This document shows positions 35,552 to 56,460 of a DNA stretch of 64,000 nt, piece by piece. Each line of letters opens with the position of its first letter. Within the stretch, counting starts at the first letter, position 1. The translations under genes and the position numbers were made by a program. Origin of the DNA: Shigella phage ESh19; sequence record ON528729; one strand, given 5' to 3'. The notes below the pieces were generated by a model. That model was not told the origin of the DNA. It ran no database searches and saw only the letters and a program-made list of their open reading frames with translations.

Positions 35552-36655
35552 TTACTCAGCGTCTGAACGAACGTCAACAAGCAGTTGAGGACGTGTGCAG
35601 TATGGCAGCATGTAAGAGTGGGCTTCGAAGTCAATACCTTCGTCACGGTCTTTCTCATATTCGAACACATACAGTTCCTGACCCAGAGTGTTTGCATAAC
35701 CCATCTTAGGACATGGAGCGTAAGCAACTTCGAAGATGTTGTTAGCTTCACCCAACATTGCTACGTTAGGGAATGCGTGACCTACACCAACATTAGTGTC
35801 AGATACACCGTCAATGCTAACCAGCGTATGAGTCTTACCACGCTTGTCTTTGAACTTACCGTTGTACTGTACGAATACAACACCACCGTAGTAGAAGCGG
35901 TTCATGTGAGCCTGAACACCATCAGTACCACCAGTTCTTAGAGAACCAGTAATCTGTTGCCAAGCCAGCGGAGTCTGCTGTGCAAGGTATGCGTCACGAA
36001 TCTTAGGATGCTTGATAAGCTTGCTGAAGAAAGTTCTGTCAACAACGATGTGAATTTCTTCACCGTTAATTACAGTACCTGTCTTAGCTTCATCTTCCAT
36101 GTGCATACGCAGGTCTTCAATGTGCGCATCGATATCAGAGTTCGGGTTGTCCAAGTCGAAGTAGATAGTCTTCTTAGTTACATCAAACTGCTTGTACAGG
36201 TCTGCGTACAGAACACCGTTAGCGTCGATAACTTTACCCTTCAGAGCTTGCATAAACAAGAACTCACGAGTAATATCAAACTTGGTACGAATCTTCATCA
36301 GCTTCTTAGCACGTACAACTGCTTCAGTAGTCAGTTCATTTGCAGTGCCTGGCTGACGAACACCCTGAATCTCATCAGGAGTGATGCTTTCAACTTCCTT
36401 GAAGTACATCATCGGGAAGCTAATCTGACGAACACGCTCAGGAGCGCTAGTCTCAGCTTTACGGCTGGTACGGTCTACCGCATCCAGTAAGCTGATATCC
36501 CAATCAGTCAAGTCCATCAGGAAAGTAGTCTGTGTTTGTGGAGCAGAACGGAACAGTCCCAGACCAGAGATATATCCGTAAGTATTTGGAATAGACTGGA
36601 CTTCACCAGTTAAGTCAGCAAGGAAAAATCTGCTTTTTTCAGAATTAGTCAACAT
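35552..36655 (-). CDS. major capsid protein (367 aa)
   Basis: Size, position downstream of protease/scaffold, strong RBS GGAGAA. Confidence 0.6.
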   Translation of the reverse strand: MLTNSEKSRFFLADLTGEVQSIPNTYGYISGLGLFRSAPQTQTTFLMDLTDWDISLLDAVDRTSRKAETSAPERVRQISFPMMYFKEVESITPDEIQGVRQPGTANELTTEAVVRAKKLMKIRTKFDITREFLFMQALKGKVIDANGVLYADLYKQFDVTKKTIYFDLDNPNSDIDAHIEDLRMHMEDEAKTGTVINGEEIHIVVDRTFFSKLIKHPKIRDAYLAQQTPLAWQQITGSLRTGGTDGVQAHMNRFYYGGVVFVQYNGKFKDKRGKTHTLVSIDGVSDTNVGVGHAFPNVAMLGEANNIFEVAYAPCPKMGYANTLGQELYVFEYEKDRDEGIDFEAHSYMLPYCTRPQLLVDVRSDAE

Positions 36656-42794: not shown

Positions 42795-42870
42795 TGGAGT
42801 ATCGGAAGGGACTCGAACCCTCATAAACCTGTTTTGCAGACAGGCACATAACCATTTCTGACACCGACAC
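42795..42870 (-). tRNA. tRNA-Cys (GCA)
   Basis: T-arm GAGGG-TTCGAGT-CCCTT, anticodon stem CCTGT/ACAGG loop CTGCAAA, acceptor GTGTCGG/CCGATAC, U73, CCA encoded. Confidence 0.7.
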
Positions 42871-42876
42871 ATAATT

Positions 42877-42969
42877 TGGAGGAAGATACCAGACTTGAAC
42901 TGGTACGCCGATTTCTCGGTTACTGGCAGTTTAGCAAACTGCTCCCTTACCTTTTAGGGTTAATCTTCC
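42877..42969 (-). tRNA. tRNA-Ser (GCT), type II
   Basis: Acceptor GGAAGAT/ATCTTCC perfect, anticodon loop TTGCTAA, long variable arm, T-arm ACCAG-TTCAAGT-CTGGT. Confidence 0.7.
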
Positions 42970-42970
42970 A

Positions 42971-43704
42971 TTATTTGTTCAGAGCTTCTTTCATCTCTGG
43001 AGTTGCAATAGTATCAATCACACCAGTTTTACATGAATCATCAAACCAGCTTGGTAGAACATTTGCAAGGAAACCATTAATATTTGTTTTCAGGTATTCT
43101 GCAATCAGTGCTGCTTCATCTGCAATCATCTGAGTTACTTCATTAGCATATGCAGTAATCTTTGCAATACCCTCATTAATCGCTGTAACGGCCTGTGTAG
43201 CGAGTTCAGAGATTGTATCTAGTCCTTGGTCGATTGCATCTTGCAAATCGCTTAGAACGCTATTTACAGCGTCTATGGAGGTATTAATCAAATCCATCGC
43301 TTTATTACCGTACTCGGTAGCTACGCCCATGATACCACTAAACGGTGTACATCCAACCTGTTCACCTGCTGCTCCCATAACGTTAGAGTAACCCTTAGCT
43401 ACTTGCATACGTTGTGAAAACTCATCTACAGACTTTTGCCCATACTCAGTGAGTGTACTTGTCGTTGAAGTTGTACTTCCAAGGCTTGTTGTGAAGCTTC
43501 CTAATAGGGCTGTTGTCAGTCCAGCAGCAACTAAAATCTGTTGTGTAGCTGGGTCTGTTACAGAACTAATTGAGTTAACTAATGATTGAGAGGCAGCTAC
43601 AGTACCACCAAGAACTGCTGCACCAGTAATAAGAGGGTTTGAGAAACCATTACCGGTTTTAAGGAGATTAAAAATCTCTTTACTTTGTTCTGTCATCTCT
43701 TTCA
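42971..43704 (-). CDS. hypothetical Gly/Ala/Ser/Thr-rich protein (244 aa) inside tRNA island
   Basis: ORF track (start refined to ATG 43704; upstream extension overlaps tRNA-Phe). Confidence 0.45.
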
Positions 43705-43721
43705 TTATGCACCTATAAAGT

Positions 43722-43797
43722 TGGTAGCCCATCGGGATTTGAACCCTGTTCTCATGTTTTTCAGACACGCGCTTTAACCATATAAGCTAATTGAGCT
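43722..43797 (-). tRNA. tRNA-Phe (GAA)
   Basis: Anticodon stem CGTGT/ACATG loop CTGAAAA; T-loop TTCAAAT; acceptor AGCTCAA/ATGGGCT (one mismatch); CCA encoded. Confidence 0.55.
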
Positions 43798-43804
43798 ATT
43801 AAAT

Positions 43805-43881
43805 TGGGGTGACCTACGGGAATCGAACCCGTATAGACCATGTTCACAGCATGGGTCATTATCCATTTATGATAAGGCCAC
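43805..43881 (-). tRNA. tRNA-His (GTG)
   Basis: Anticodon stem CCATG/CATGG loop CTGTGAA, C73, T-arm ACGGG-TTCGATT-CCCGT. Confidence 0.7.
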
Positions 43882-43912
43882 ATTTAAGGACTCTCGTAAG
43901 AATCCTTAGAAG

Positions 43913-43988
43913 TGGCAGCAGTATAAGGATTTGAACCTTAATCTTTCAGCTTCAGAGGCTGGAGCATTCCCAGTTATGCTATACTGCT
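43913..43988 (-). tRNA. tRNA-Gln (CTG)
   Basis: Acceptor AGCAGTA/TACTGCT perfect, D-stem GCAT/ATGC, anticodon loop CTCTGAA, T-arm TAAGG-TTCAAAT-CCTTA. Confidence 0.6.
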
Positions 43989-43994
43989 AATATT

Positions 43995-51162: not shown

Positions 51163-51531
51163 ATGAAGGCAAAGAGTGGAAAAGACTTTTATTGCTTCCT
51201 ACAATCTTATGTCCAAAGTGTTCAAGAAGGTGACAGGTATAATCTTGATGATGTACTTCCGACACCCTTAACATGGCGTGATAGCAAATGGCCTGAGAAG
51301 GATATCAACCCTACCGAAACATATTCAGAATACACACCTAAAATTCCTCTACCAGATACTGAAGAACTTCTATATCCGATGTTCCATATTGTGGGTCTTG
51401 GTACATTTTTGATGGATATTCAATATGTGATGGGTAAAGGCTATAAGATTGACGGAGTTGTTGTAGGTGATGTTTCACCGCAGCACAAAGGTTATTTTAG
51501 ACTAAATGCAAGATTAGAGGCTAAGAAATGA
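51163..51531 (+). CDS. hypothetical protein (122 aa), paralog of N-terminal domain of next gene
   Basis: Shared pattern K.YPDFKEF..F...V..G.RY......LP.T.....WPE.DI...T...YTP....P..EELLY with 51528..52412. Confidence 0.5.
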   Translation: MKAKSGKDFYCFLQSYVQSVQEGDRYNLDDVLPTPLTWRDSKWPEKDINPTETYSEYTPKIPLPDTEELLYPMFHIVGLGTFLMDIQYVMGKGYKIDGVVVGDVSPQHKGYFRLNARLEAKK

Positions 51532-52412
51532 TTAAAGCAAAGACATATCCAGATTTTAAAGAGTTCGTTAAAGACTTTGTAGCGAATGTTAAAGCTGGCA
51601 AAAGATACGACTTCAGAAAGTATCAAGAGGCCGTTCTGCCTCTGACATATAGCTCACCGTGGCCTGAGTCTGATATTCCAGAAGTTACTGACTTCAATTA
51701 CACACCAGACTACACAGTTCCATTTAGCGAAGAACTTTTATATTCAGTTGGTGCTCAGATGAGGACTGCTGACTTCTTCATGGACTTGCAGTATGCAATC
51801 ATCAATGGGAAGGATGTTGACACAGTTTATTGTGAATGGTTGGCAAGGGTTAAACCTTTCTCCATGCTTAATGCAAAGTTGAAGGATGCAATCACACCTC
51901 CAGTTATTACACAGCAGCCAACTGACCAAACTGTTAACGAGGGTGGAACACTTACACTTTCAGTTGTTGCTACTGGTGCAACTGGTTATCAGTGGAAGAA
52001 AGGTGCATCAAACATCTCTGGAGCAACCTCTGCAACATATACTAAGAATGGCGTAGTCCCTACTGATGCTGGCGCATACACCTGTGTAGTTTCTGGTGAA
52101 GGTGGCTCAAGTGTTAATTCCAACGCTGCCACAGTAACTGTGAATGCACTGCCTGTGATTACACAGCAACCTACTAACCAAGAGATTACAGAGGGAGGTA
52201 CACTCACCCTTAGCATCGTAGCCACTGGTGCAACTGGTTATCAGTGGAAGAAAGATGATGTAGATATCCCTTCAGCAACATCTGCAACATATGAAAAGAC
52301 ACCGACTTCTAAAGCTGATGATGAAGGTACTTACTCTTGTGTTGTAACTGGTGTAGGTGGCTCAATCACATCCCAATCTGCCAAGGTGGTTATTAACGCA
52401 GTAGGAGGTTGA
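51528..52412 (+). CDS. protein with two Ig-like repeats (294 aa)
   Basis: Tandem repeats PVITQQPT.Q...EGGTLTLS.VATGATGYQWKK ... TSATY ... Y.CVV.G.GGS typical of Ig-like domains. Confidence 0.55.
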   Translation: MIKAKTYPDFKEFVKDFVANVKAGKRYDFRKYQEAVLPLTYSSPWPESDIPEVTDFNYTPDYTVPFSEELLYSVGAQMRTADFFMDLQYAIINGKDVDTVYCEWLARVKPFSMLNAKLKDAITPPVITQQPTDQTVNEGGTLTLSVVATGATGYQWKKGASNISGATSATYTKNGVVPTDAGAYTCVVSGEGGSSVNSNAATVTVNALPVITQQPTNQEITEGGTLTLSIVATGATGYQWKKDDVDIPSATSATYEKTPTSKADDEGTYSCVVTGVGGSITSQSAKVVINAVGG

Positions 52413-52879
52413 TAATGCAACTCTCAAGTAAAGGCTTAGAAGCCATTAAGTTCTTTGAAGGGCTTCGCTTAGAAGCCTATAAAGACTCTGCTGGAATCCC
52501 TACAATTGGTTATGGAACAATCCGTATCAACGGAAGACCTGTAACAATGGGGATGAAGATTACTGCTGAACAAGCTGTTCAATATCTCCTTGCAGATGTT
52601 GAAAGTTATGTAGGTGCAGTAAACAGAGCAATTAAGGTTCCGACTACGCAGAACGAATTTGACGCACTTGTTGTAGAGACTTACAACATTGGTATTGGTG
52701 CTATGCAGGATTCAACTTTTATCAAGCGTCACAATGCTGGTAACAAAGCTGGTTGTGCAGAAGCTATGCAGTGGTGGAACAAGATTACAGTGAATGGTCA
52801 AAAAGTAACTTCCAAGGGTCTACAAAATAGACGTAGTTTGGAAGCCAAGATTTACCTTGACGCTGTTTATCCAAAATAG
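52409..52879 (+). CDS. endolysin, GH24 (T4 lysozyme-like) muramidase
   Basis: LEAIKFFEGLRLEAYKDSAGIPTIGYGT matches catalytic region of phage lysozymes; 156 aa. Confidence 0.75.
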   Translation: MIMQLSSKGLEAIKFFEGLRLEAYKDSAGIPTIGYGTIRINGRPVTMGMKITAEQAVQYLLADVESYVGAVNRAIKVPTTQNEFDALVVETYNIGIGAMQDSTFIKRHNAGNKAGCAEAMQWWNKITVNGQKVTSKGLQNRRSLEAKIYLDAVYPK

Positions 52880-52917
52880 TAGATTAAGAGGCTCCTTCGG
52901 GAGCCTTTTTTATTTCT

Positions 52918-53328
52918 ATGGAGAAAACTATGAAGCTTTGGGCAAATGATAATGGTACTTTCAAGTACACAAGAAGTGGTATGAAGGTTCGTATTGCAGG
53001 AACCAAGTTGATTACGATGGGTGATAAGGTGTTCACAAAGTTTGTTGTTGAGGTCATTGAACGTTCACCTATCACAATGGCTAACAAAGGTTTCTTTGCT
53101 GGTGAACTGTACAACGTGGATGACAATGGTATGTTCTCACCTTTAGGTGAAAGTTCTCTTGATATTATTTCAGAGCACCCCTTGACAAGATGGCAGTTAT
53201 CAGGTTACTATAAATTTCTACTTGAGCAGAAGAAGAAGTTACACCAGAGTGAGGCTACATACCATAACAATGAGTGTATCAAACTTCTGGATAAAATTGA
53301 GAAAGCTGAGAGAGGTTATTATGAATAA
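52918..53328 (+). CDS. hypothetical protein (136 aa)
   Basis: ORF track. Confidence 0.5.
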   Translation: MEKTMKLWANDNGTFKYTRSGMKVRIAGTKLITMGDKVFTKFVVEVIERSPITMANKGFFAGELYNVDDNGMFSPLGESSLDIISEHPLTRWQLSGYYKFLLEQKKKLHQSEATYHNNECIKLLDKIEKAERGYYE

Positions 53329-53704
53329 AGAGATTCAAGTCAAAGTTGACACTTCGCGTCATGGTGTTCAAGATTTGGAATTAGTTGATGCTTCCATCTA
53401 TGAACGTGATGGGGAGCTTTTCCTTCATTTTACAAAGGCTGATAATGAGCTTCGCCGTGTACGTGATGATGAAGATGGTTGCCCTGTTTTTGGTTGGTAT
53501 GGTGTTGATTTCCCGTTATATGCTTACCACTACCCAGATGGTCAGGAAGATTGGACTACACAGGCTATCTTTGATGAACTGAATGGTGTACCTCTGGAAG
53601 ATGAGGTTTCAGAACCAACTCTTCTAACTTTCACCTTCATCAAAGAAGAAAAAGTAGGTGATATCTCCGTAACAGAAGCGTTGCAAGTTACACAGGTACT
53701 TTGA
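53321..53704 (+). CDS. hypothetical protein (127 aa)
   Basis: Start refined to ATG 53321 (RBS GAGAGG). Confidence 0.45.
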   Translation: MNKEIQVKVDTSRHGVQDLELVDASIYERDGELFLHFTKADNELRRVRDDEDGCPVFGWYGVDFPLYAYHYPDGQEDWTTQAIFDELNGVPLEDEVSEPTLLTFTFIKEEKVGDISVTEALQVTQVL

Positions 53705-53705
53705 T

Positions 53706-53999
53706 ATGAGTAAAGTACAGGTTATATTTCCAATTAATGACTTCAGCTATGAAGCTGAGTTTGACCTGTACGAAGAACTCACTGATGATGTTATCTGGAG
53801 TGTGGTGACAAAGGCCATTAAGAAACTTTATGGTGGCCTTTTAAACCCTAATAACCCAAAAGTGTCAACAAAGCAAGTTTCTGAGCCATACACTAGCTAT
53901 GATGCTGAAAAGAGTAAGTTCGAGATTACTTGCTATGACCTTATGGTATCTGATAACAAAATCAACTACTTCTTCGTCAGAGAATACACAGATGCTTAA
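53706..53999 (+). CDS. hypothetical protein (97 aa)
   Basis: ORF track. Confidence 0.45.
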   Translation: MSKVQVIFPINDFSYEAEFDLYEELTDDVIWSVVTKAIKKLYGGLLNPNNPKVSTKQVSEPYTSYDAEKSKFEITCYDLMVSDNKINYFFVREYTDA

Positions 54000-54336
54000 G
54001 CTCCACATCGTTGTTTATAAGAATTTTGCAGATATACAAGAAGCCCTGTCATCAAGGCTGGACAAATGTCAGCAAAGACTATTTCTGATGTTTGATATGC
54101 TTGACTATAAACAACCTGATAAGCTTGTGTATAAAGATGGTACAGTAATCTTTAAAAGTGAAGATTCAGTGACCATCTTTGTTAAGCATGATATGCCAGC
54201 TAAAAATATAGGGATGCTTGAGTTCTACATCTACCAATCCACAGGTATGCGTGGTGAGGGTATTAAAATAGATTCTATTGAGGTCTTTGAAAAACCGAAG
54301 ACACCACTTAAAAAGTATTTAGTGAGGAAGTTATAG
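53992..54336 (+). CDS. hypothetical protein (114 aa)
   Basis: Start refined to ATG 53992 overlapping previous stop. Confidence 0.45.
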   Translation: MLKLHIVVYKNFADIQEALSSRLDKCQQRLFLMFDMLDYKQPDKLVYKDGTVIFKSEDSVTIFVKHDMPAKNIGMLEFYIYQSTGMRGEGIKIDSIEVFEKPKTPLKKYLVRKL

Positions 54337-54337
54337 T

Positions 54338-54931
54338 ATGAGTGTAAACATTAAAGAAAATGGTGGAGTTGATTCTCCACAAGTTGCATTAGTTCAACAC
54401 TACGGCAATGTTCAGGGTGTGCTTGCTGCGTTCCAGCCAAACATTAACTCACCAGCAAAAATTGCCAAATTGACTATGGATGTGAACAACATCTCTGCAT
54501 GTACCATTGAAGATGTGCAGTACTTTAAGTTCTCATCTAAAGAAGTTGATGAAGCACTTCTGAAGTACCGTTTAGACCTTGAGAAAGACATTAACCACCA
54601 AGAGGTTGTGAAACTGTTTGGTGACCTGCATGATATGCTTGATAAAGTTCACAAGCGTACATATTATATGAATGGTGGTTCTATTATCACTACGTACACT
54701 TCTCCATTCACTAAAGAGGTCATCTTAACAGATGATGAGCAGTTCTTTGTTATGACTGCCTCAAGTTCAGATTGGTGGATGAAGAACACAGGTATGAAGA
54801 CGATTATTGAAGCTATTCGTCAGCATATCCCGAACTTCAGCCCTTGGAAGGGTGCTTCTGATGACTTCATAGCTATCCTTGAAGATGTTCGAAGCAGAAA
54901 AAGTAAATTACTGCCTAGAAAATATACTTGA
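54338..54931 (+). CDS. hypothetical protein (197 aa)
   Basis: ORF track. Confidence 0.5.
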   Translation: MSVNIKENGGVDSPQVALVQHYGNVQGVLAAFQPNINSPAKIAKLTMDVNNISACTIEDVQYFKFSSKEVDEALLKYRLDLEKDINHQEVVKLFGDLHDMLDKVHKRTYYMNGGSIITTYTSPFTKEVILTDDEQFFVMTASSSDWWMKNTGMKTIIEAIRQHIPNFSPWKGASDDFIAILEDVRSRKSKLLPRKYT

Positions 54932-55001
54932 CAGTGATATCTAGAATTTTGTATGATGGGAGCTATCGAAAGGTGGTTCCCTTTTTTATTGGAGAGATAA
55001 A

Positions 55002-55742
55002 ATGAACAAAGTTAATGAATCAGATACAATTTTTATATATGTCAAGGAAAACCCATTGCGTAGAGTTGCAGCTACTGTCACACATGTCTCTGATAGTGGT
55101 GTGGTGTACTTCAGACCTTTGAAAAATATACACTTCAAGTTGTACCCAGATTCTCAAAACCTTGCAGAAGGGCATTTGTGGGCTGGTAAGGTTTATTCGA
55201 CTGCTGATATAGAAAATCTGGTATTCACAGGAAGCTTTAAAGACCTCCTTGGTATTGCTTTGGCAGATACTGGAATTATTAAAGATGAAGAGTCTGAAAA
55301 GGCAACTTTTGAGGCAACTCCGACTCTGAAGAAAGAGGTAACTCCAAAGGTTAGAACGATTGATGTTACTATTGAGGCTCCTACACACAGACTCACAGAT
55401 GTACCTGAGCAAGAGTCTAGATATCAAACTAAAGAAAACGGTCATCAAACTCTGGTCGTAGATAATGTCAGAGATTACTTCAAGTATTTCTGTGATGCGA
55501 ATCCACATAGCCATGCTTGGACTACACCACAAAAGAAATTTGACTCCATGTTGACCAATGCTTGTGAAGATGCTAAAAAGAAAGCTGAAGAGTTAAAAGA
55601 AGCAATCAGTGTCACAGACCATGTGGTTAATAAGAATGACATTGAGTACACAGTAAGGATGATGTTAAAAGCTGGTTTAACACCTTATCAGATTGCTGAA
55701 GAGATTCAAAGGCAATTCTACAATGCAATGGTGAAAGAATGA
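55002..55742 (+). CDS. hypothetical protein (246 aa)
   Basis: ORF track. Confidence 0.5.
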   Translation: MNKVNESDTIFIYVKENPLRRVAATVTHVSDSGVVYFRPLKNIHFKLYPDSQNLAEGHLWAGKVYSTADIENLVFTGSFKDLLGIALADTGIIKDEESEKATFEATPTLKKEVTPKVRTIDVTIEAPTHRLTDVPEQESRYQTKENGHQTLVVDNVRDYFKYFCDANPHSHAWTTPQKKFDSMLTNACEDAKKKAEELKEAISVTDHVVNKNDIEYTVRMMLKAGLTPYQIAEEIQRQFYNAMVKE

Positions 55743-55957
55743 AAAAGTTTACAACTCTAGGTGAATACTGGAAGCTCTCTGTTTCTGAGCAGTACAGACG
55801 AGCTAAGAAGACTAAACAGTGCTATGGCAAGTTTGCCAGAGGTGATATTCTGGTATGTACTGAAGAGTCACTTAAGAATGTTACTCCAAGAGGTAAGACA
55901 TTCCAGAGAATGATTGACAGAGAGTGGAATGCACGATTAAAGAGGATTGAACAATGA
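55739..55957 (+). CDS. hypothetical protein (72 aa)
   Basis: ORF track. Confidence 0.45.
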   Translation: MKKFTTLGEYWKLSVSEQYRRAKKTKQCYGKFARGDILVCTEESLKNVTPRGKTFQRMIDREWNARLKRIEQ

Positions 55958-56460
55958 TTTATGAAGATTCAAGAGACCAGATTTCTTATGAGAAGTCAAG
56001 ACACCATGTATCTTTCAAGATTGTGAAAGCAAACGGTGAAGAAGGAACTATTTCACACTTTGGAGGTGAAAATTGGTTTGGTACAGGATGTTTTGAAGGT
56101 TACAGCAGAGAGTACTTGAAAGCTTTCTACAGAGACTTCTCAGCAGACTACAACGAACTTATCAATCTTGAAAATAAGCGTAGAAATGCTGAACATAATA
56201 CCAGAGGGTGGGCAGGAATAGCAATCATGTTATCTGTATTCCTTGCTATGATTTGTGTAATCTCCTTCGGTGGCATGTACATGCAGGATTTAACGTTTAA
56301 CCAAGCTGAGAAGAAAATTTCTGAGATTTGGTTCTTGTATGTGATTCCAATAGTTGGTATCATCCTCTCATGTTTGAGAATGACAACTTACAAGAAGAAG
56401 ATTGTAGAGTTTGAGAGTAAGTTTGAAGAGGTAAGTAAAGAATGCAACCTAAAATTTTAG
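55954..56460 (+). CDS. membrane protein (168 aa, two TM segments)
   Basis: Hydrophobic stretches GWAGIAIMLSVFLAMICVISFGG and IWFLYVIPIVGIILSCL. Confidence 0.5.
   Translation: MIYEDSRDQISYEKSRHHVSFKIVKANGEEGTISHFGGENWFGTGCFEGYSREYLKAFYRDFSADYNELINLENKRRNAEHNTRGWAGIAIMLSVFLAMICVISFGGMYMQDLTFNQAEKKISEIWFLYVIPIVGIILSCLRMTTYKKKIVEFESKFEEVSKECNLKF

What the first reader, a model, noticed from the sequence alone, without database searches (positions are those of the whole stretch)
51163..52879. Tandem paralogs, the second carrying two Ig-like repeats, directly upstream of the endolysin
Proteins 51163..51531 and 51528..52412 share an N-terminal domain of about 120 aa; the second adds two near-identical Ig-like repeats (PVITQQPT...GATGYQWKK...TSATY...Y.CVV.G.GGS). 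The pair is translationally coupled to a GH24 lysozyme. This suggests a cell-wall or surface-binding accessory to lysis, or a decoration/adhesin module acquired with the lysin.
Basis: seen in the sequence. Interest (0 to 1): 0.45.

Follow-up and report, generated by a model that had tools for sequence, protein, structure and literature searches.

The report
Known capsid decoration protein plus paralog
The Ig-repeat protein is the already-solved Hoc-like fibre that sits on capsid hexamers of Felix O1-like phages, not a helper of the neighbouring lysozyme; the only open question is what its conserved, Ig-less upstream paralog does.

Summary
ORFs 51163..51531 (122 aa) and 51528..52412 (294 aa) share a ~120-aa N-terminal domain (37% identity, E=6e-17). 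The second adds two Ig-like repeats and abuts a GH24 lysozyme. The window is a Mooglevirus (Felix O1-like myophage), 99% identical to sequenced phages. The long protein is the known 'Hex-Dec'/Hoc-like capsid decoration protein. Its residues 1-120 are identical to cryo-EM chain 9c2d_S (Shigella phage Sf14 gp20), and the window's major capsid protein is identical to Sf14 gp34. Adjacency to the lysozyme is inherited gene order and is also present in distant relatives. The short protein is a capsid-binding-domain-only paralog from one ancient tandem duplication. It is under purifying selection (dN/dS 0.06-0.18) and has a fixed length. It lacks the capsid-contacting Arg79 and Arg107. One viable subclade lost it through a single deletion. 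Neither cryo-EM paper mentions it, and its function is unknown. My best guess (~0.4) is a capsid-hexamer binder with altered specificity or low or transient occupancy. Overall the finding is ordinary and already explained, with one modest loose end.

The parts
51127..51150 (+). Intrinsic-terminator-like hairpin (GGGGC-GAAA-GCCCC plus T-run). It ends 12 nt before the short gene's ATG and marks the upstream boundary of the three-gene unit.
   Evidence: A terminator is annotated at the same place in Mijalis and AYO145A. This is a consensus match only; function was not tested.
51163..51531 (+). Short paralog (122 aa): a capsid-binding-domain (CapBD)-only homolog of Hex-Dec, orthologous to Sf14 gp21, Bas63_0125 and VpaE1 ORF40c. 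Function uncharacterised.
   Evidence: phrog_4463; its only PDB hits are 9c2d_S at E=1.7e-12 and 9ncf_S at 4e-10; dN/dS 0.06-0.18; AF2 pLDDT 61; Foldseek top hits 9c2d_S prob 0.98 and 9ncf_S 0.96.
51528..51887 (+). Hex-Dec N-terminal capsid-binding domain (aa 1-120), with Arg79 and Arg107 that contact MCP Asp221 in Sf14.
   Evidence: aa 1-120 identical to 9c2d_S; PMC11821841; (Arg79/Arg107/Lys109 kept in all long orthologs).
51897..52148 (+). Hex-Dec Ig-like repeat 1 (aa ~124-207).
   Evidence: Ig_3, Ig_2, I-set; Hoc-like head decoration PHROGs match this part.
52149..52412 (+). Hex-Dec Ig-like repeat 2 (aa ~208-294) and stop codon.
   Evidence: 72% nt identity to repeat 1.
52415..52879 (+). 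GH24 (T4-lysozyme-type) endolysin, 154 aa, with no signal or TM segment. The likely start is ATG 52415 rather than TTG 52409.
   Evidence: PF00959 E=1e-38; phrog_7 endolysin; 7m5i_B 'Endolysin' E=7.8e-85; E-x8-D-x5-T motif; max KD19 0.73.
52886..52919 (+). Intrinsic-terminator-like hairpin (10-bp stem plus T-run), the downstream boundary of the unit.
   Evidence: annotated terminators in Mijalis and AYO145A.
35552..36655 (-). Major capsid protein, the binding partner of Hex-Dec, encoded ~15 kb away on the other strand.
   Evidence: identical to Sf14 gp34 (9c2d_A) over residues 2-367, E=5e-250.
50529..51119 (+). Conserved 196-aa ORF of unknown function that precedes the CapBD gene in every lineage. 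It is syntenic context and is not shown to belong to the module.
   Evidence: phrog_4034, unknown; 25-49% identical homologs upstream of the CapBD gene in L006, L008, L011, L013; no PDB match.

Best explanation
This is a capsid-decoration gene pair that shares a terminator-flanked unit with the endolysin in a Mooglevirus (Felix O1-like myophage). Shown: the 294-aa protein is the phage's 'Hex-Dec'/Hoc-like decoration protein. Its N-terminal ~118-aa capsid-binding domain plugs as a monomer into the centre of the 60 pentamer-proximal hexamers of the T=9 capsid, through Arg79/Arg107 salt bridges to MCP Asp221. Its two Ig-like domains project outward as a short fibre. By analogy with T4 Hoc, the Ig fibre probably mediates weak adhesion to surfaces, mucus or other particles (inferred). 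The 122-aa protein is a paralog of the capsid-binding domain alone. It arose by one ancient tandem duplication and is kept under purifying selection. It has replaced the Arg79 contact loop with an invariant hydrophobic VGLG loop. My inferred mechanism for it (~0.4) is that it still docks on MCP hexamers but with altered specificity or at low, transient or symmetry-mismatched occupancy, for example on the 20 three-fold hexamers that Hex-Dec avoids, or on the same sites as an Ig-less competitor. The lysozyme is an ordinary cytoplasmic GH24 endolysin. Its adjacency reflects conserved gene order and probably shared late expression (inferred), not a joint function in lysis.
For: Identity of the phage: 99.1% nt identity to Citrobacter phage BSwM KMM4 and 98% to the Sf13-Sf19 phages. 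Long protein: aa 1-120 identical to 9c2d_S, and whole-protein E=1.9e-254 to 9ncf_S. The MCP is identical to Sf14 gp34. Cryo-EM placement (both phages) and virion MS (Sf14) are from PMC11821841 and PMC12609058. Ig domains. Short protein: homology, fold, dN/dS 0.06-0.18 against 0.03-0.06 for the long CapBD. It is intact in ~230 of 252 phage records and in a lineage only 49% identical with the same gene order. Its length is fixed at 122-124 aa while the long gene varies from 1 to 4 Ig repeats. The tree gives 100% bootstrap for separate short and long clades with the same internal topology. The short family's most conserved block (0.98) is homologous to the long protein's capsid-contact region. 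Synteny rather than lysis function: more distant relatives have a single CapBD gene between the up196 homolog and the lysozyme. There is no TM protein from 50302 to 55957, and the spanin lies elsewhere in Sf14 (PMC12482277). Terminators flank the trio.
Against: All the evidence against concerns the short paralog's proposed capsid binding. Both phages with solved capsids encode it (Sf14 gp21; Bas63_0125). Even so, neither model contains it, and Bas63 reports no density on the other hexamers. It lacks both capsid-contacting arginines (Gly78 and Gln107). One worldwide Felixounavirus subclade lost it through a single deletion and remains viable. The AF2 model is only moderate (pLDDT 61). No virion-proteome evidence for or against it could be read. 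'Late' timing and co-transcription are inferred, since no transcriptome was found and no promoter was identified between the upstream terminator and the short gene.
Confidence: 0.8

Rival explanations
1. The short paralog is not a virion component. It acts in the cell as a chaperone or regulator of Hex-Dec. It might hold the Hex-Dec capsid-binding domain until heads have expanded, or set Hex-Dec occupancy. Alternatively it has taken on an unrelated partner through its new hydrophobic loop.
For: It is absent from both solved capsid models although both phages encode it. Arg79 and Arg107 are lost and replaced by an invariant hydrophobic loop. It sits immediately upstream of Hex-Dec with an ATGA overlap, which suits roughly equal co-production. 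It is dispensable in a natural deletion clade.
Against: There is no direct evidence for any interaction. The CapBD fold is otherwise known only as a capsid binder, and the family has just 12 clusters among 1.84 billion representatives. Relatives with a single CapBD gene manage without such a helper.
Confidence: 0.3
2. One reading: the pair is a cell-wall or envelope-binding accessory that works with the GH24 lysozyme in lysis.
For: Tight, conserved adjacency of Hex-Dec and lysozyme (from a 3-nt gap to a 4-nt overlap) in every locus examined, including a lineage about 50% divergent. The lysin's ribosome-binding site lies within the Hex-Dec coding end.
Against: The long protein is a capsid protein by cryo-EM (Sf14, Bas63) and virion MS (Sf14), with an identical binding domain and an identical MCP here. 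No peptidoglycan-binding domain was found. Neither protein has a TM segment or signal. The whole neighbourhood is collinear in relatives, so adjacency is not specific. The spanin is encoded elsewhere.
Confidence: 0.03
3. The short ORF is a decaying remnant of a duplication with no function.
For: It was lost in one subclade with no obvious cost. Its dN/dS is about 3-fold higher than that of the long CapBD.
Against: dN/dS is 0.06-0.18, similar to the lysozyme and the upstream ORF. The ORF is intact with a fixed length in ~230 genomes and in a lineage 49% identical. It has 61 invariant columns and a nearly invariant block at columns 71-95 of the short+long alignment, roughly residues 68-92. A true pseudogene looks different: in mio the start is lost, the frame is shifted and ~220 nt are deleted.
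Confidence: 0.05
4. Database reading: both are tail or tail-fibre proteins.
For: GenBank, UniRef and PHROG labels say 'tail protein' or 'tail fiber protein'. Ig-like domains also occur on tail tube proteins (PHROG hits).
Against: The labels come from the Ig domains. Cryo-EM places the protein on capsid hexamers, and the tail-protein PHROG matches cover only the Ig region.
Confidence: 0.02

Closest known systems
Shigella phage Sf14 gp20 (PDB 9C2D/9C3A chain S) and Escherichia phage Bas63 Hex-Dec (PDB 9NCF chain S): the hexamer-centre decoration protein of Ounavirinae
   Same: The long protein is this protein. Its capsid-binding domain is 100% identical to Sf14 gp20 residues 1-120. Arg79 and Arg107 are present, the MCP partner is identical, the C-terminal Ig-like array is present, and the gene sits in the same place between the short paralog and the endolysin.
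   Different: It has two Ig repeats, against three in Sf14 and four in Bas63. This is within the known range of 1-4. The Ig array is closer in sequence to Bas63 than to Sf14, so the protein is a mosaic. The short paralog shares only the capsid-binding fold. It lacks the Ig array and both contact arginines and is not in either model.
[quoted passage not shown]
   Same: It works like Hoc: a monomer at hexamer centres, with a string of Ig-like domains projecting from the capsid, and it is non-essential. The PHROG 'Hoc-like head decoration' families match the Ig part (phrog_4069 E=7e-28, phrog_2973 E=7e-24).
   Different: The domain order is reversed: the capsid-binding domain is N-terminal here and C-terminal in Hoc. 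The capsid-binding domain is larger, topologically distinct and unrelated in sequence (PMC12609058). It occupies only 60 of 80 hexamers. I know of no Ig-less paralog in T4 (own knowledge, not tested).
T5 pb10 decoration protein (PDB 5LXK and related)
   Same: N-terminal capsid-binding domain followed by a C-terminal Ig-like domain, bound at hexamer centres. Its Ig domain is detectably similar (5lxk_A E=2.3e-9, 8zvi_a E=1e-9).
   Different: The similarity is confined to the Ig domain (query residues 131-206). The capsid-binding domains are not detectably related.
Single-copy CapBD proteins of more distant Felix O1-like metagenomic phages (P0095-P0099)
   Same: Same capsid-binding-domain family and the same genomic slot between the up196 homolog and the GH24 lysozyme.
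   Different: They are single genes carrying other display modules (Big_2-like, one Ig, or a Lys/Ser-rich tail), with no tandem short paralog. P0098 (153 aa) shows that a nearly bare CapBD can be the only copy.

Membership tests
Ounavirinae Hex-Dec / Sf14 gp20 family (long protein) | N-terminal ~118-aa capsid-binding domain homologous to gp20 | tested here: met
   Residues 1-120 identical to 9c2d_S; whole-sequence E=8.7e-185 to 9c2d_S and 1.9e-254 to 9ncf_S.
Ounavirinae Hex-Dec / Sf14 gp20 family (long protein) | Capsid-contacting Arg79 and Arg107, and an MCP partner with the Asp221 ring | tested here: met
   Arg79, Arg107 and Lys109 are present. The window MCP is identical to Sf14 gp34 over residues 2-367.
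Ounavirinae Hex-Dec / Sf14 gp20 family (long protein) | C-terminal array of 1-4 Ig-like domains | tested here: met
   Two repeats: Pfam Ig_3 3e-19, I-set 3e-13. Length classes of 210/294/377/460 aa across 30 loci.
Ounavirinae Hex-Dec / Sf14 gp20 family (long protein) | Physically bound at the centres of pentamer-proximal hexamers in the virion | not testable with these tools
   Shown for Sf14 and Bas63 (PMC11821841, PMC12609058). Inferred here from the identical binding domain and MCP.
Ounavirinae Hex-Dec / Sf14 gp20 family (short protein) | Capsid-binding-domain homology and fold | tested here: met
   E=6e-17 to the long protein; E=1.7e-12 and 4.2e-10 to 9c2d_S and 9ncf_S, the only PDB hits; Foldseek prob 0.98 and 0.96, TM ~0.5, from a moderate model.
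Ounavirinae Hex-Dec / Sf14 gp20 family (short protein) | Capsid-contacting Arg79 and Arg107 | tested here: not met
   Gly78 (invariant in all short orthologs) and Gln107 (Gln/His/Arg among orthologs) occupy these columns.
Ounavirinae Hex-Dec / Sf14 gp20 family (short protein) | Ig-like display array | tested here: not met
   122 aa with no Pfam domain; length fixed at 122-124 aa in all orthologs.
Ounavirinae Hex-Dec / Sf14 gp20 family (short protein) | Presence in the virion | not testable with these tools
   Not in PDB models 9C2D, 9C3A or 9NCF. MS tables were unreadable or not held.
T4 Hoc family | Homologous capsid-binding domain at the C-terminus after the Ig domains | tested here: not met
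   Hoc-like PHROG matches cover only residues ~119-288, the Ig part. Here the CapBD is N-terminal. An exhaustive profile search with the CapBD found only 12 clusters, all of the Felix O1-like type. It is a functional analog, not a member.
Endolysin cell-wall-binding or lysis-accessory modules (LysM, SH3, PG_binding, holin, spanin) | Peptidoglycan-binding domain, or TM segment(s) or lipobox | tested here: not met
   No such Pfam hits at E<=1. Max Kyte-Doolittle 19-aa window is 1.22 (short) and 1.15 (long), below 1.6.
GH24 phage lysozyme (third gene) | PF00959 domain with the catalytic Glu-x8-Asp-x5-Thr triad | tested here: met
   PF00959 E=9.9e-39; 7m5i_B 'Endolysin' E=7.8e-85; E15/D24/T30 motif.

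The most novel reading that the evidence does not exclude
The short paralog is an unrecognised third capsid-associated protein of Felix O1-like phages. It would be an Ig-less plug adapted to the 20 icosahedral three-fold hexamers that Hex-Dec does not occupy, through its invariant hydrophobic VGLG loop in place of Arg79. It would have been missed because a monomer on a three-fold axis is smeared by icosahedral averaging. Alternatively it is an antagonist or placeholder whose competition sets the 60-of-80 Hex-Dec occupancy pattern. Either way, a duplicated decoration protein would have subfunctionalised by hexamer class.
Probability: 0.15. Interest if true: 0.5.

Novelty: already known. Interest (0 to 1): 0.2.

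Why it matters
For the flagged feature it matters little. The Ig-repeat protein is a structurally solved capsid decoration protein in a phage 98-99% identical to sequenced isolates. The useful outcomes are corrections. Many GenBank, UniRef and PHROG entries still call it a 'tail protein', and its position next to the endolysin should not be read as a lysis function. The residual point of interest is the short paralog. It is conserved and under selection, and two cryo-EM studies and a genome-wide codon study left it unmentioned or 'hypothetical'. If it binds capsids, it would be a natural example of a decoration protein duplicating and specialising. It could also help explain why Hex-Dec occupies only one class of hexamers. 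Natural deletion strains (mio, REP7, fBSPA4, Z31) make this easy to test.

Tried and rejected
1. Hidden holin. The short paralog has an invariant hydrophobic stretch (LLYPMFHIVGLGTFLM), but the maximum KD19 is 1.22, below 1.6, and the stretch is homologous to a soluble domain. Rejected.
2. Frameshift fusion of short and long. The long ORF is in the -1 frame relative to the short. However, the window junction (GCT AAG AAA TGA) has no X_XXY_YYZ slippery heptamer, the long gene has its own GAGG and ATG, and solved chain 9c2d_S aligns from its residue 1. Rejected.
3. Virion proteomics for the short paralog. The wV8 paper covers only the tail fibre. The VpaE1 proteome table is an image, and the labels in its Table S1 were not updated from the MS results. 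The Sf14 supplement does not mention Sf14 gp21, no Bas63 supplement is held, and the J Virol 2018 Sf14 paper is not held. Inconclusive.
4. Transcriptome or late-promoter evidence. No Felix O1-like RNA-seq paper was found. The sigma-70 scan was below shuffle expectation, 5 sites against 10. The 'late operon' reading therefore stays inferred.
5. Wider homologs. The word-indexed searches found only close relatives. The exhaustive profile search found 12 clusters in total, so there is no link to any other protein family.
6. Upstream 196-aa ORF as a virion protein. It has no PDB match and belongs to a PHROG of unknown function. Left open.
7. A better structure model. The AF2 model stayed at pLDDT 61 with the shallow alignment. 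A second job was not used, because the tool returns no coordinates for interface analysis.
Full report
OBSERVATION. The short protein aligns with the N-terminus of the long one at 37% identity over 123 aa, E=6e-17. The long protein carries two Ig-like repeats (Pfam Ig_3 E=3e-19, Ig_2 2e-14, I-set 3e-13). These repeats are 62% identical in protein and 72% in DNA, so they are similar but not 'near-identical'. The third ORF is a GH24 lysozyme: PF00959 E=1e-38, solved 'Endolysin' 7m5i_B E=8e-85, and catalytic motif E15-x8-D24-x5-T30. The short and long genes overlap by ATGA. The long gene's TGA is followed 2 nt later by the lysozyme ATG at 52415, and an AGGAGG lies within the last Hex-Dec codons. 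The 154-aa length annotated in relatives favours ATG 52415 over the TTG at 52409.

WHERE THE WINDOW COMES FROM. The region is 99.1% identical to Citrobacter phage BSwM KMM4 and 98% identical to Shigella phages ESh20 and Sf13-Sf19. These are Mooglevirus, subfamily Ounavirinae, that is Felix O1-like myophages. Annotations of the long gene in these records disagree with each other: 'tail protein', 'tail fiber protein', 'putative capsid decoration protein' and 'hypothetical'.

THE LONG PROTEIN IS A KNOWN, SOLVED CAPSID DECORATION PROTEIN. Residues 1-120 are identical to PDB chain 9c2d_S, which is Sf14 gp20. The whole protein matches 9ncf_S, Bas63 Hex-Dec, at E=1.9e-254. The Sf14 cryo-EM paper (PMC11821841) shows that gp20 is detected by MS in virions. 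It binds as a monomer through its N-terminal 118 residues at the centre of the pentamer-proximal hexamers of the T=9 capsid. Arg79 and Arg107 form salt bridges to Asp221 of MCP gp34, and three predicted Ig-like domains project outward as in T4 Hoc. The Bas63 paper (PMC12609058) finds the same independently. It calls the protein Hex-Dec, notes that the gene lies more than 10 kb outside the structural module, and reports 1-4 Ig domains across the genus with no density on the other hexamers. In the window, Arg79 and Arg107 are present. The MCP at 35552..36655 on the minus strand is identical to Sf14 gp34 over residues 2-367. The published binding mode therefore applies here without extrapolation. 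The PHROG 'Hoc-like head decoration' hits cover only the Ig part. The capsid-binding domain is N-terminal, unlike in Hoc, so this protein is a functional analog of Hoc and not a member of its family.

THE LYSIS-ACCESSORY READING FAILS. Neither protein has a peptidoglycan-binding domain or a TM segment (max KD19 1.22 and 1.15). No ORF between 50302 and 55957 is membrane-associated. In Sf14 the spanin is encoded far away at gp047 (PMC12482277). The adjacency to the lysozyme is conserved gene order. All 30 complete loci examined show the order up196 - (short) - long - lysozyme. So does a metagenomic relative only ~50% identical (L006). More distant relatives, whose CapBD is ~25% identical, show up196-homolog - single CapBD gene - lysozyme within an otherwise collinear neighbourhood (DUF2828, DUF5681 and others). 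Intrinsic-terminator-like hairpins flank the trio at 51127 and 52886. Terminators are annotated at the same places in Mijalis and AYO145A. Co-transcription and late timing are plausible but inferred. I found no promoter signal and no transcriptome.

THE SHORT PARALOG IS THE ONLY LOOSE END. Its only PDB relatives are the two Hex-Dec capsid-binding domains (E=1.7e-12 and 4.2e-10). An AF2 model of moderate quality (pLDDT 61, pTM 0.58) retrieves exactly those two chains as top Foldseek hits, with prob 0.98 and 0.96 and TM ~0.5. The next best hit has prob 0.41 or lower.

An exhaustive profile search of 1.84 billion representatives finds only 12 clusters for this domain. They comprise the short form, the long forms, a divergent short/long pair, and single-copy versions fused to Big_2-like, Ig or Lys/Ser-rich tails. 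An NJ tree gives 100% bootstrap for a short clade and for a long clade, each with the same internal topology. This indicates one ancient tandem duplication, after the split from the single-copy lineages. The placement of one single-copy lineage (L008/P0096) relative to the duplication is unresolved (41% bootstrap).

The short gene is under purifying selection. Its dN/dS is 0.06-0.18, against 0.03-0.06 for the long CapBD and 0.02-0.11 for the lysozyme. It is intact in ~230 of 252 phage records, and it keeps a fixed length of 122-124 aa while the long gene varies by whole Ig repeats.

Its most conserved block is LLYPMFHIVGLGTFLMDIQYV.GKGY, with a mean top-residue frequency of 0.98. This block is homologous to the region of the long protein that carries Arg79, but it is hydrophobic and Gly-rich. 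The Arg79 column is an invariant Gly, and the Arg107 column is Gln, His or Arg. That pattern looks like a conserved but altered binding surface rather than decay. A real pseudogene looks different. In phage mio the start codon is lost, the frame is shifted and ~220 nt are deleted. The same 192-nt gap occurs in Z31, fBSPA4, REP7 and L046. This points to a single deletion inherited by a viable, geographically widespread subclade, so the gene is dispensable for propagation.

WHAT THE SHORT PARALOG PROBABLY DOES (INFERENCE). Both phages with solved capsids encode it (Sf14 gp21; Bas63_0125). Neither paper mentions it: full-text searches gave 0 hits for gp21 in the Sf14 paper, and for 'paralog' or a relevant use of 'duplicat' in either. 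It was still listed as 'Hypothetical' in September 2025, with a high tRNA adaptation index of 0.883. My preferred reading (~0.4) is a capsid-hexamer binder with changed specificity or with low, transient or symmetry-mismatched occupancy. The main rival (~0.3) is an intracellular chaperone or regulator of Hex-Dec, or a protein with a new partner. The reported lack of density on the non-Hex-Dec hexamers counts against an ordered high-occupancy site. It does not exclude a monomer on a three-fold axis that icosahedral averaging would smear out. I could not read any virion proteome that settles the matter.

COMPARISON AND NOVELTY. The long protein is a member of the Hex-Dec / Sf14 gp20 family, and every sequence-testable defining feature is met. 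It works like T4 Hoc and T5 pb10 but shares only Ig-domain similarity with them. The short protein shares the family's fold but fails two defining features, the contact arginines and the Ig array. It is best called a CapBD-only paralog of unknown function. The finding as flagged is already known and ordinary. The paralog is a modest, cheaply testable open question.

VERDICT. Observation: confirmed. Interpretation: partly supported, because decoration is correct while lysis accessory and acquisition with the lysin are not. Novelty: already known. Interest: 0.2. The most novel reading not excluded is subfunctionalisation of a duplicated decoration protein by hexamer class, with probability ~0.15 and interest 0.5 if true.

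Noticed in passing
window 42795-47882 (- strand); extra hit at 46903-46977: An array of 25 tRNA genes called by ARAGORN. Rfam adds one borderline tRNA match at 46903-46977 (29.6 bits against a gathering score of 29) that ARAGORN does not call. Sf14 is reported to encode 26 tRNAs.
   Followed up: partly
window 48048-49463 (- strand): A 471-aa vWA/DUF2828 protein, annotated 'RNA-binding protein' in Sf14, lies directly beside the tRNA array. Its homologs carry PF11443 and PF25043. It might be a Ro60/TROVE-like RNA-handling module. This was not tested.
   Followed up: no
window 55954-56460 (+ strand): The only membrane protein near the endolysin (168 aa, KD19 peak 2.59, TM-like windows from residue 83 to 128). 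Mijalis annotates it as a 'putative cytoplasmic membrane protein'. It is a possible holin candidate, since no holin sits next to the lysin.
   Followed up: no
L006 11510-12369 and L007 8967-9826: The divergent metagenomic relative encodes a Gad1-family (anti-Gabija, PF25705) ORF about 3.8 kb downstream of its lysozyme. The window has no ORF of 250 aa or more at the equivalent position.
   Followed up: partly
L015 (Shigella phage Z31) 898-1470: In Z31 the Hex-Dec gene is split into 134-aa and 55-aa ORFs just after the capsid-binding domain, in a genome that also lacks the short paralog. This is either a sequencing frameshift or a natural, nearly Ig-less Hex-Dec. vB_SflM_004 shows similar fragmentation.
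   Followed up: no
window 51528-52412: The long protein is a mosaic. Its capsid-binding domain is 100% identical to Sf14 gp20, while its Ig array is closer to Bas63 Hex-Dec. Synonymous divergence from Sf14 is higher in the CapBD (dS 0.26) than in the two upstream genes, the 196-aa ORF and the short paralog (0.04-0.09). This suggests recombination at the domain boundary.
   Followed up: partly
phage collection record 'Staphylococcus phage SA1': A record labelled Staphylococcus phage carries a Felix O1-like short-paralog gene that is 99% identical to VpaE1 ORF40c. It is probably a mis-assigned or contaminated record.
   Followed up: no
window 51127-51162 and 52886-52917: In this region, terminator-like hairpins are followed within ~12 nt by the next gene's ribosome-binding site, leaving no room for a promoter. 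Downstream genes may therefore depend on terminator read-through or on promoters embedded in upstream coding sequence.
   Followed up: no
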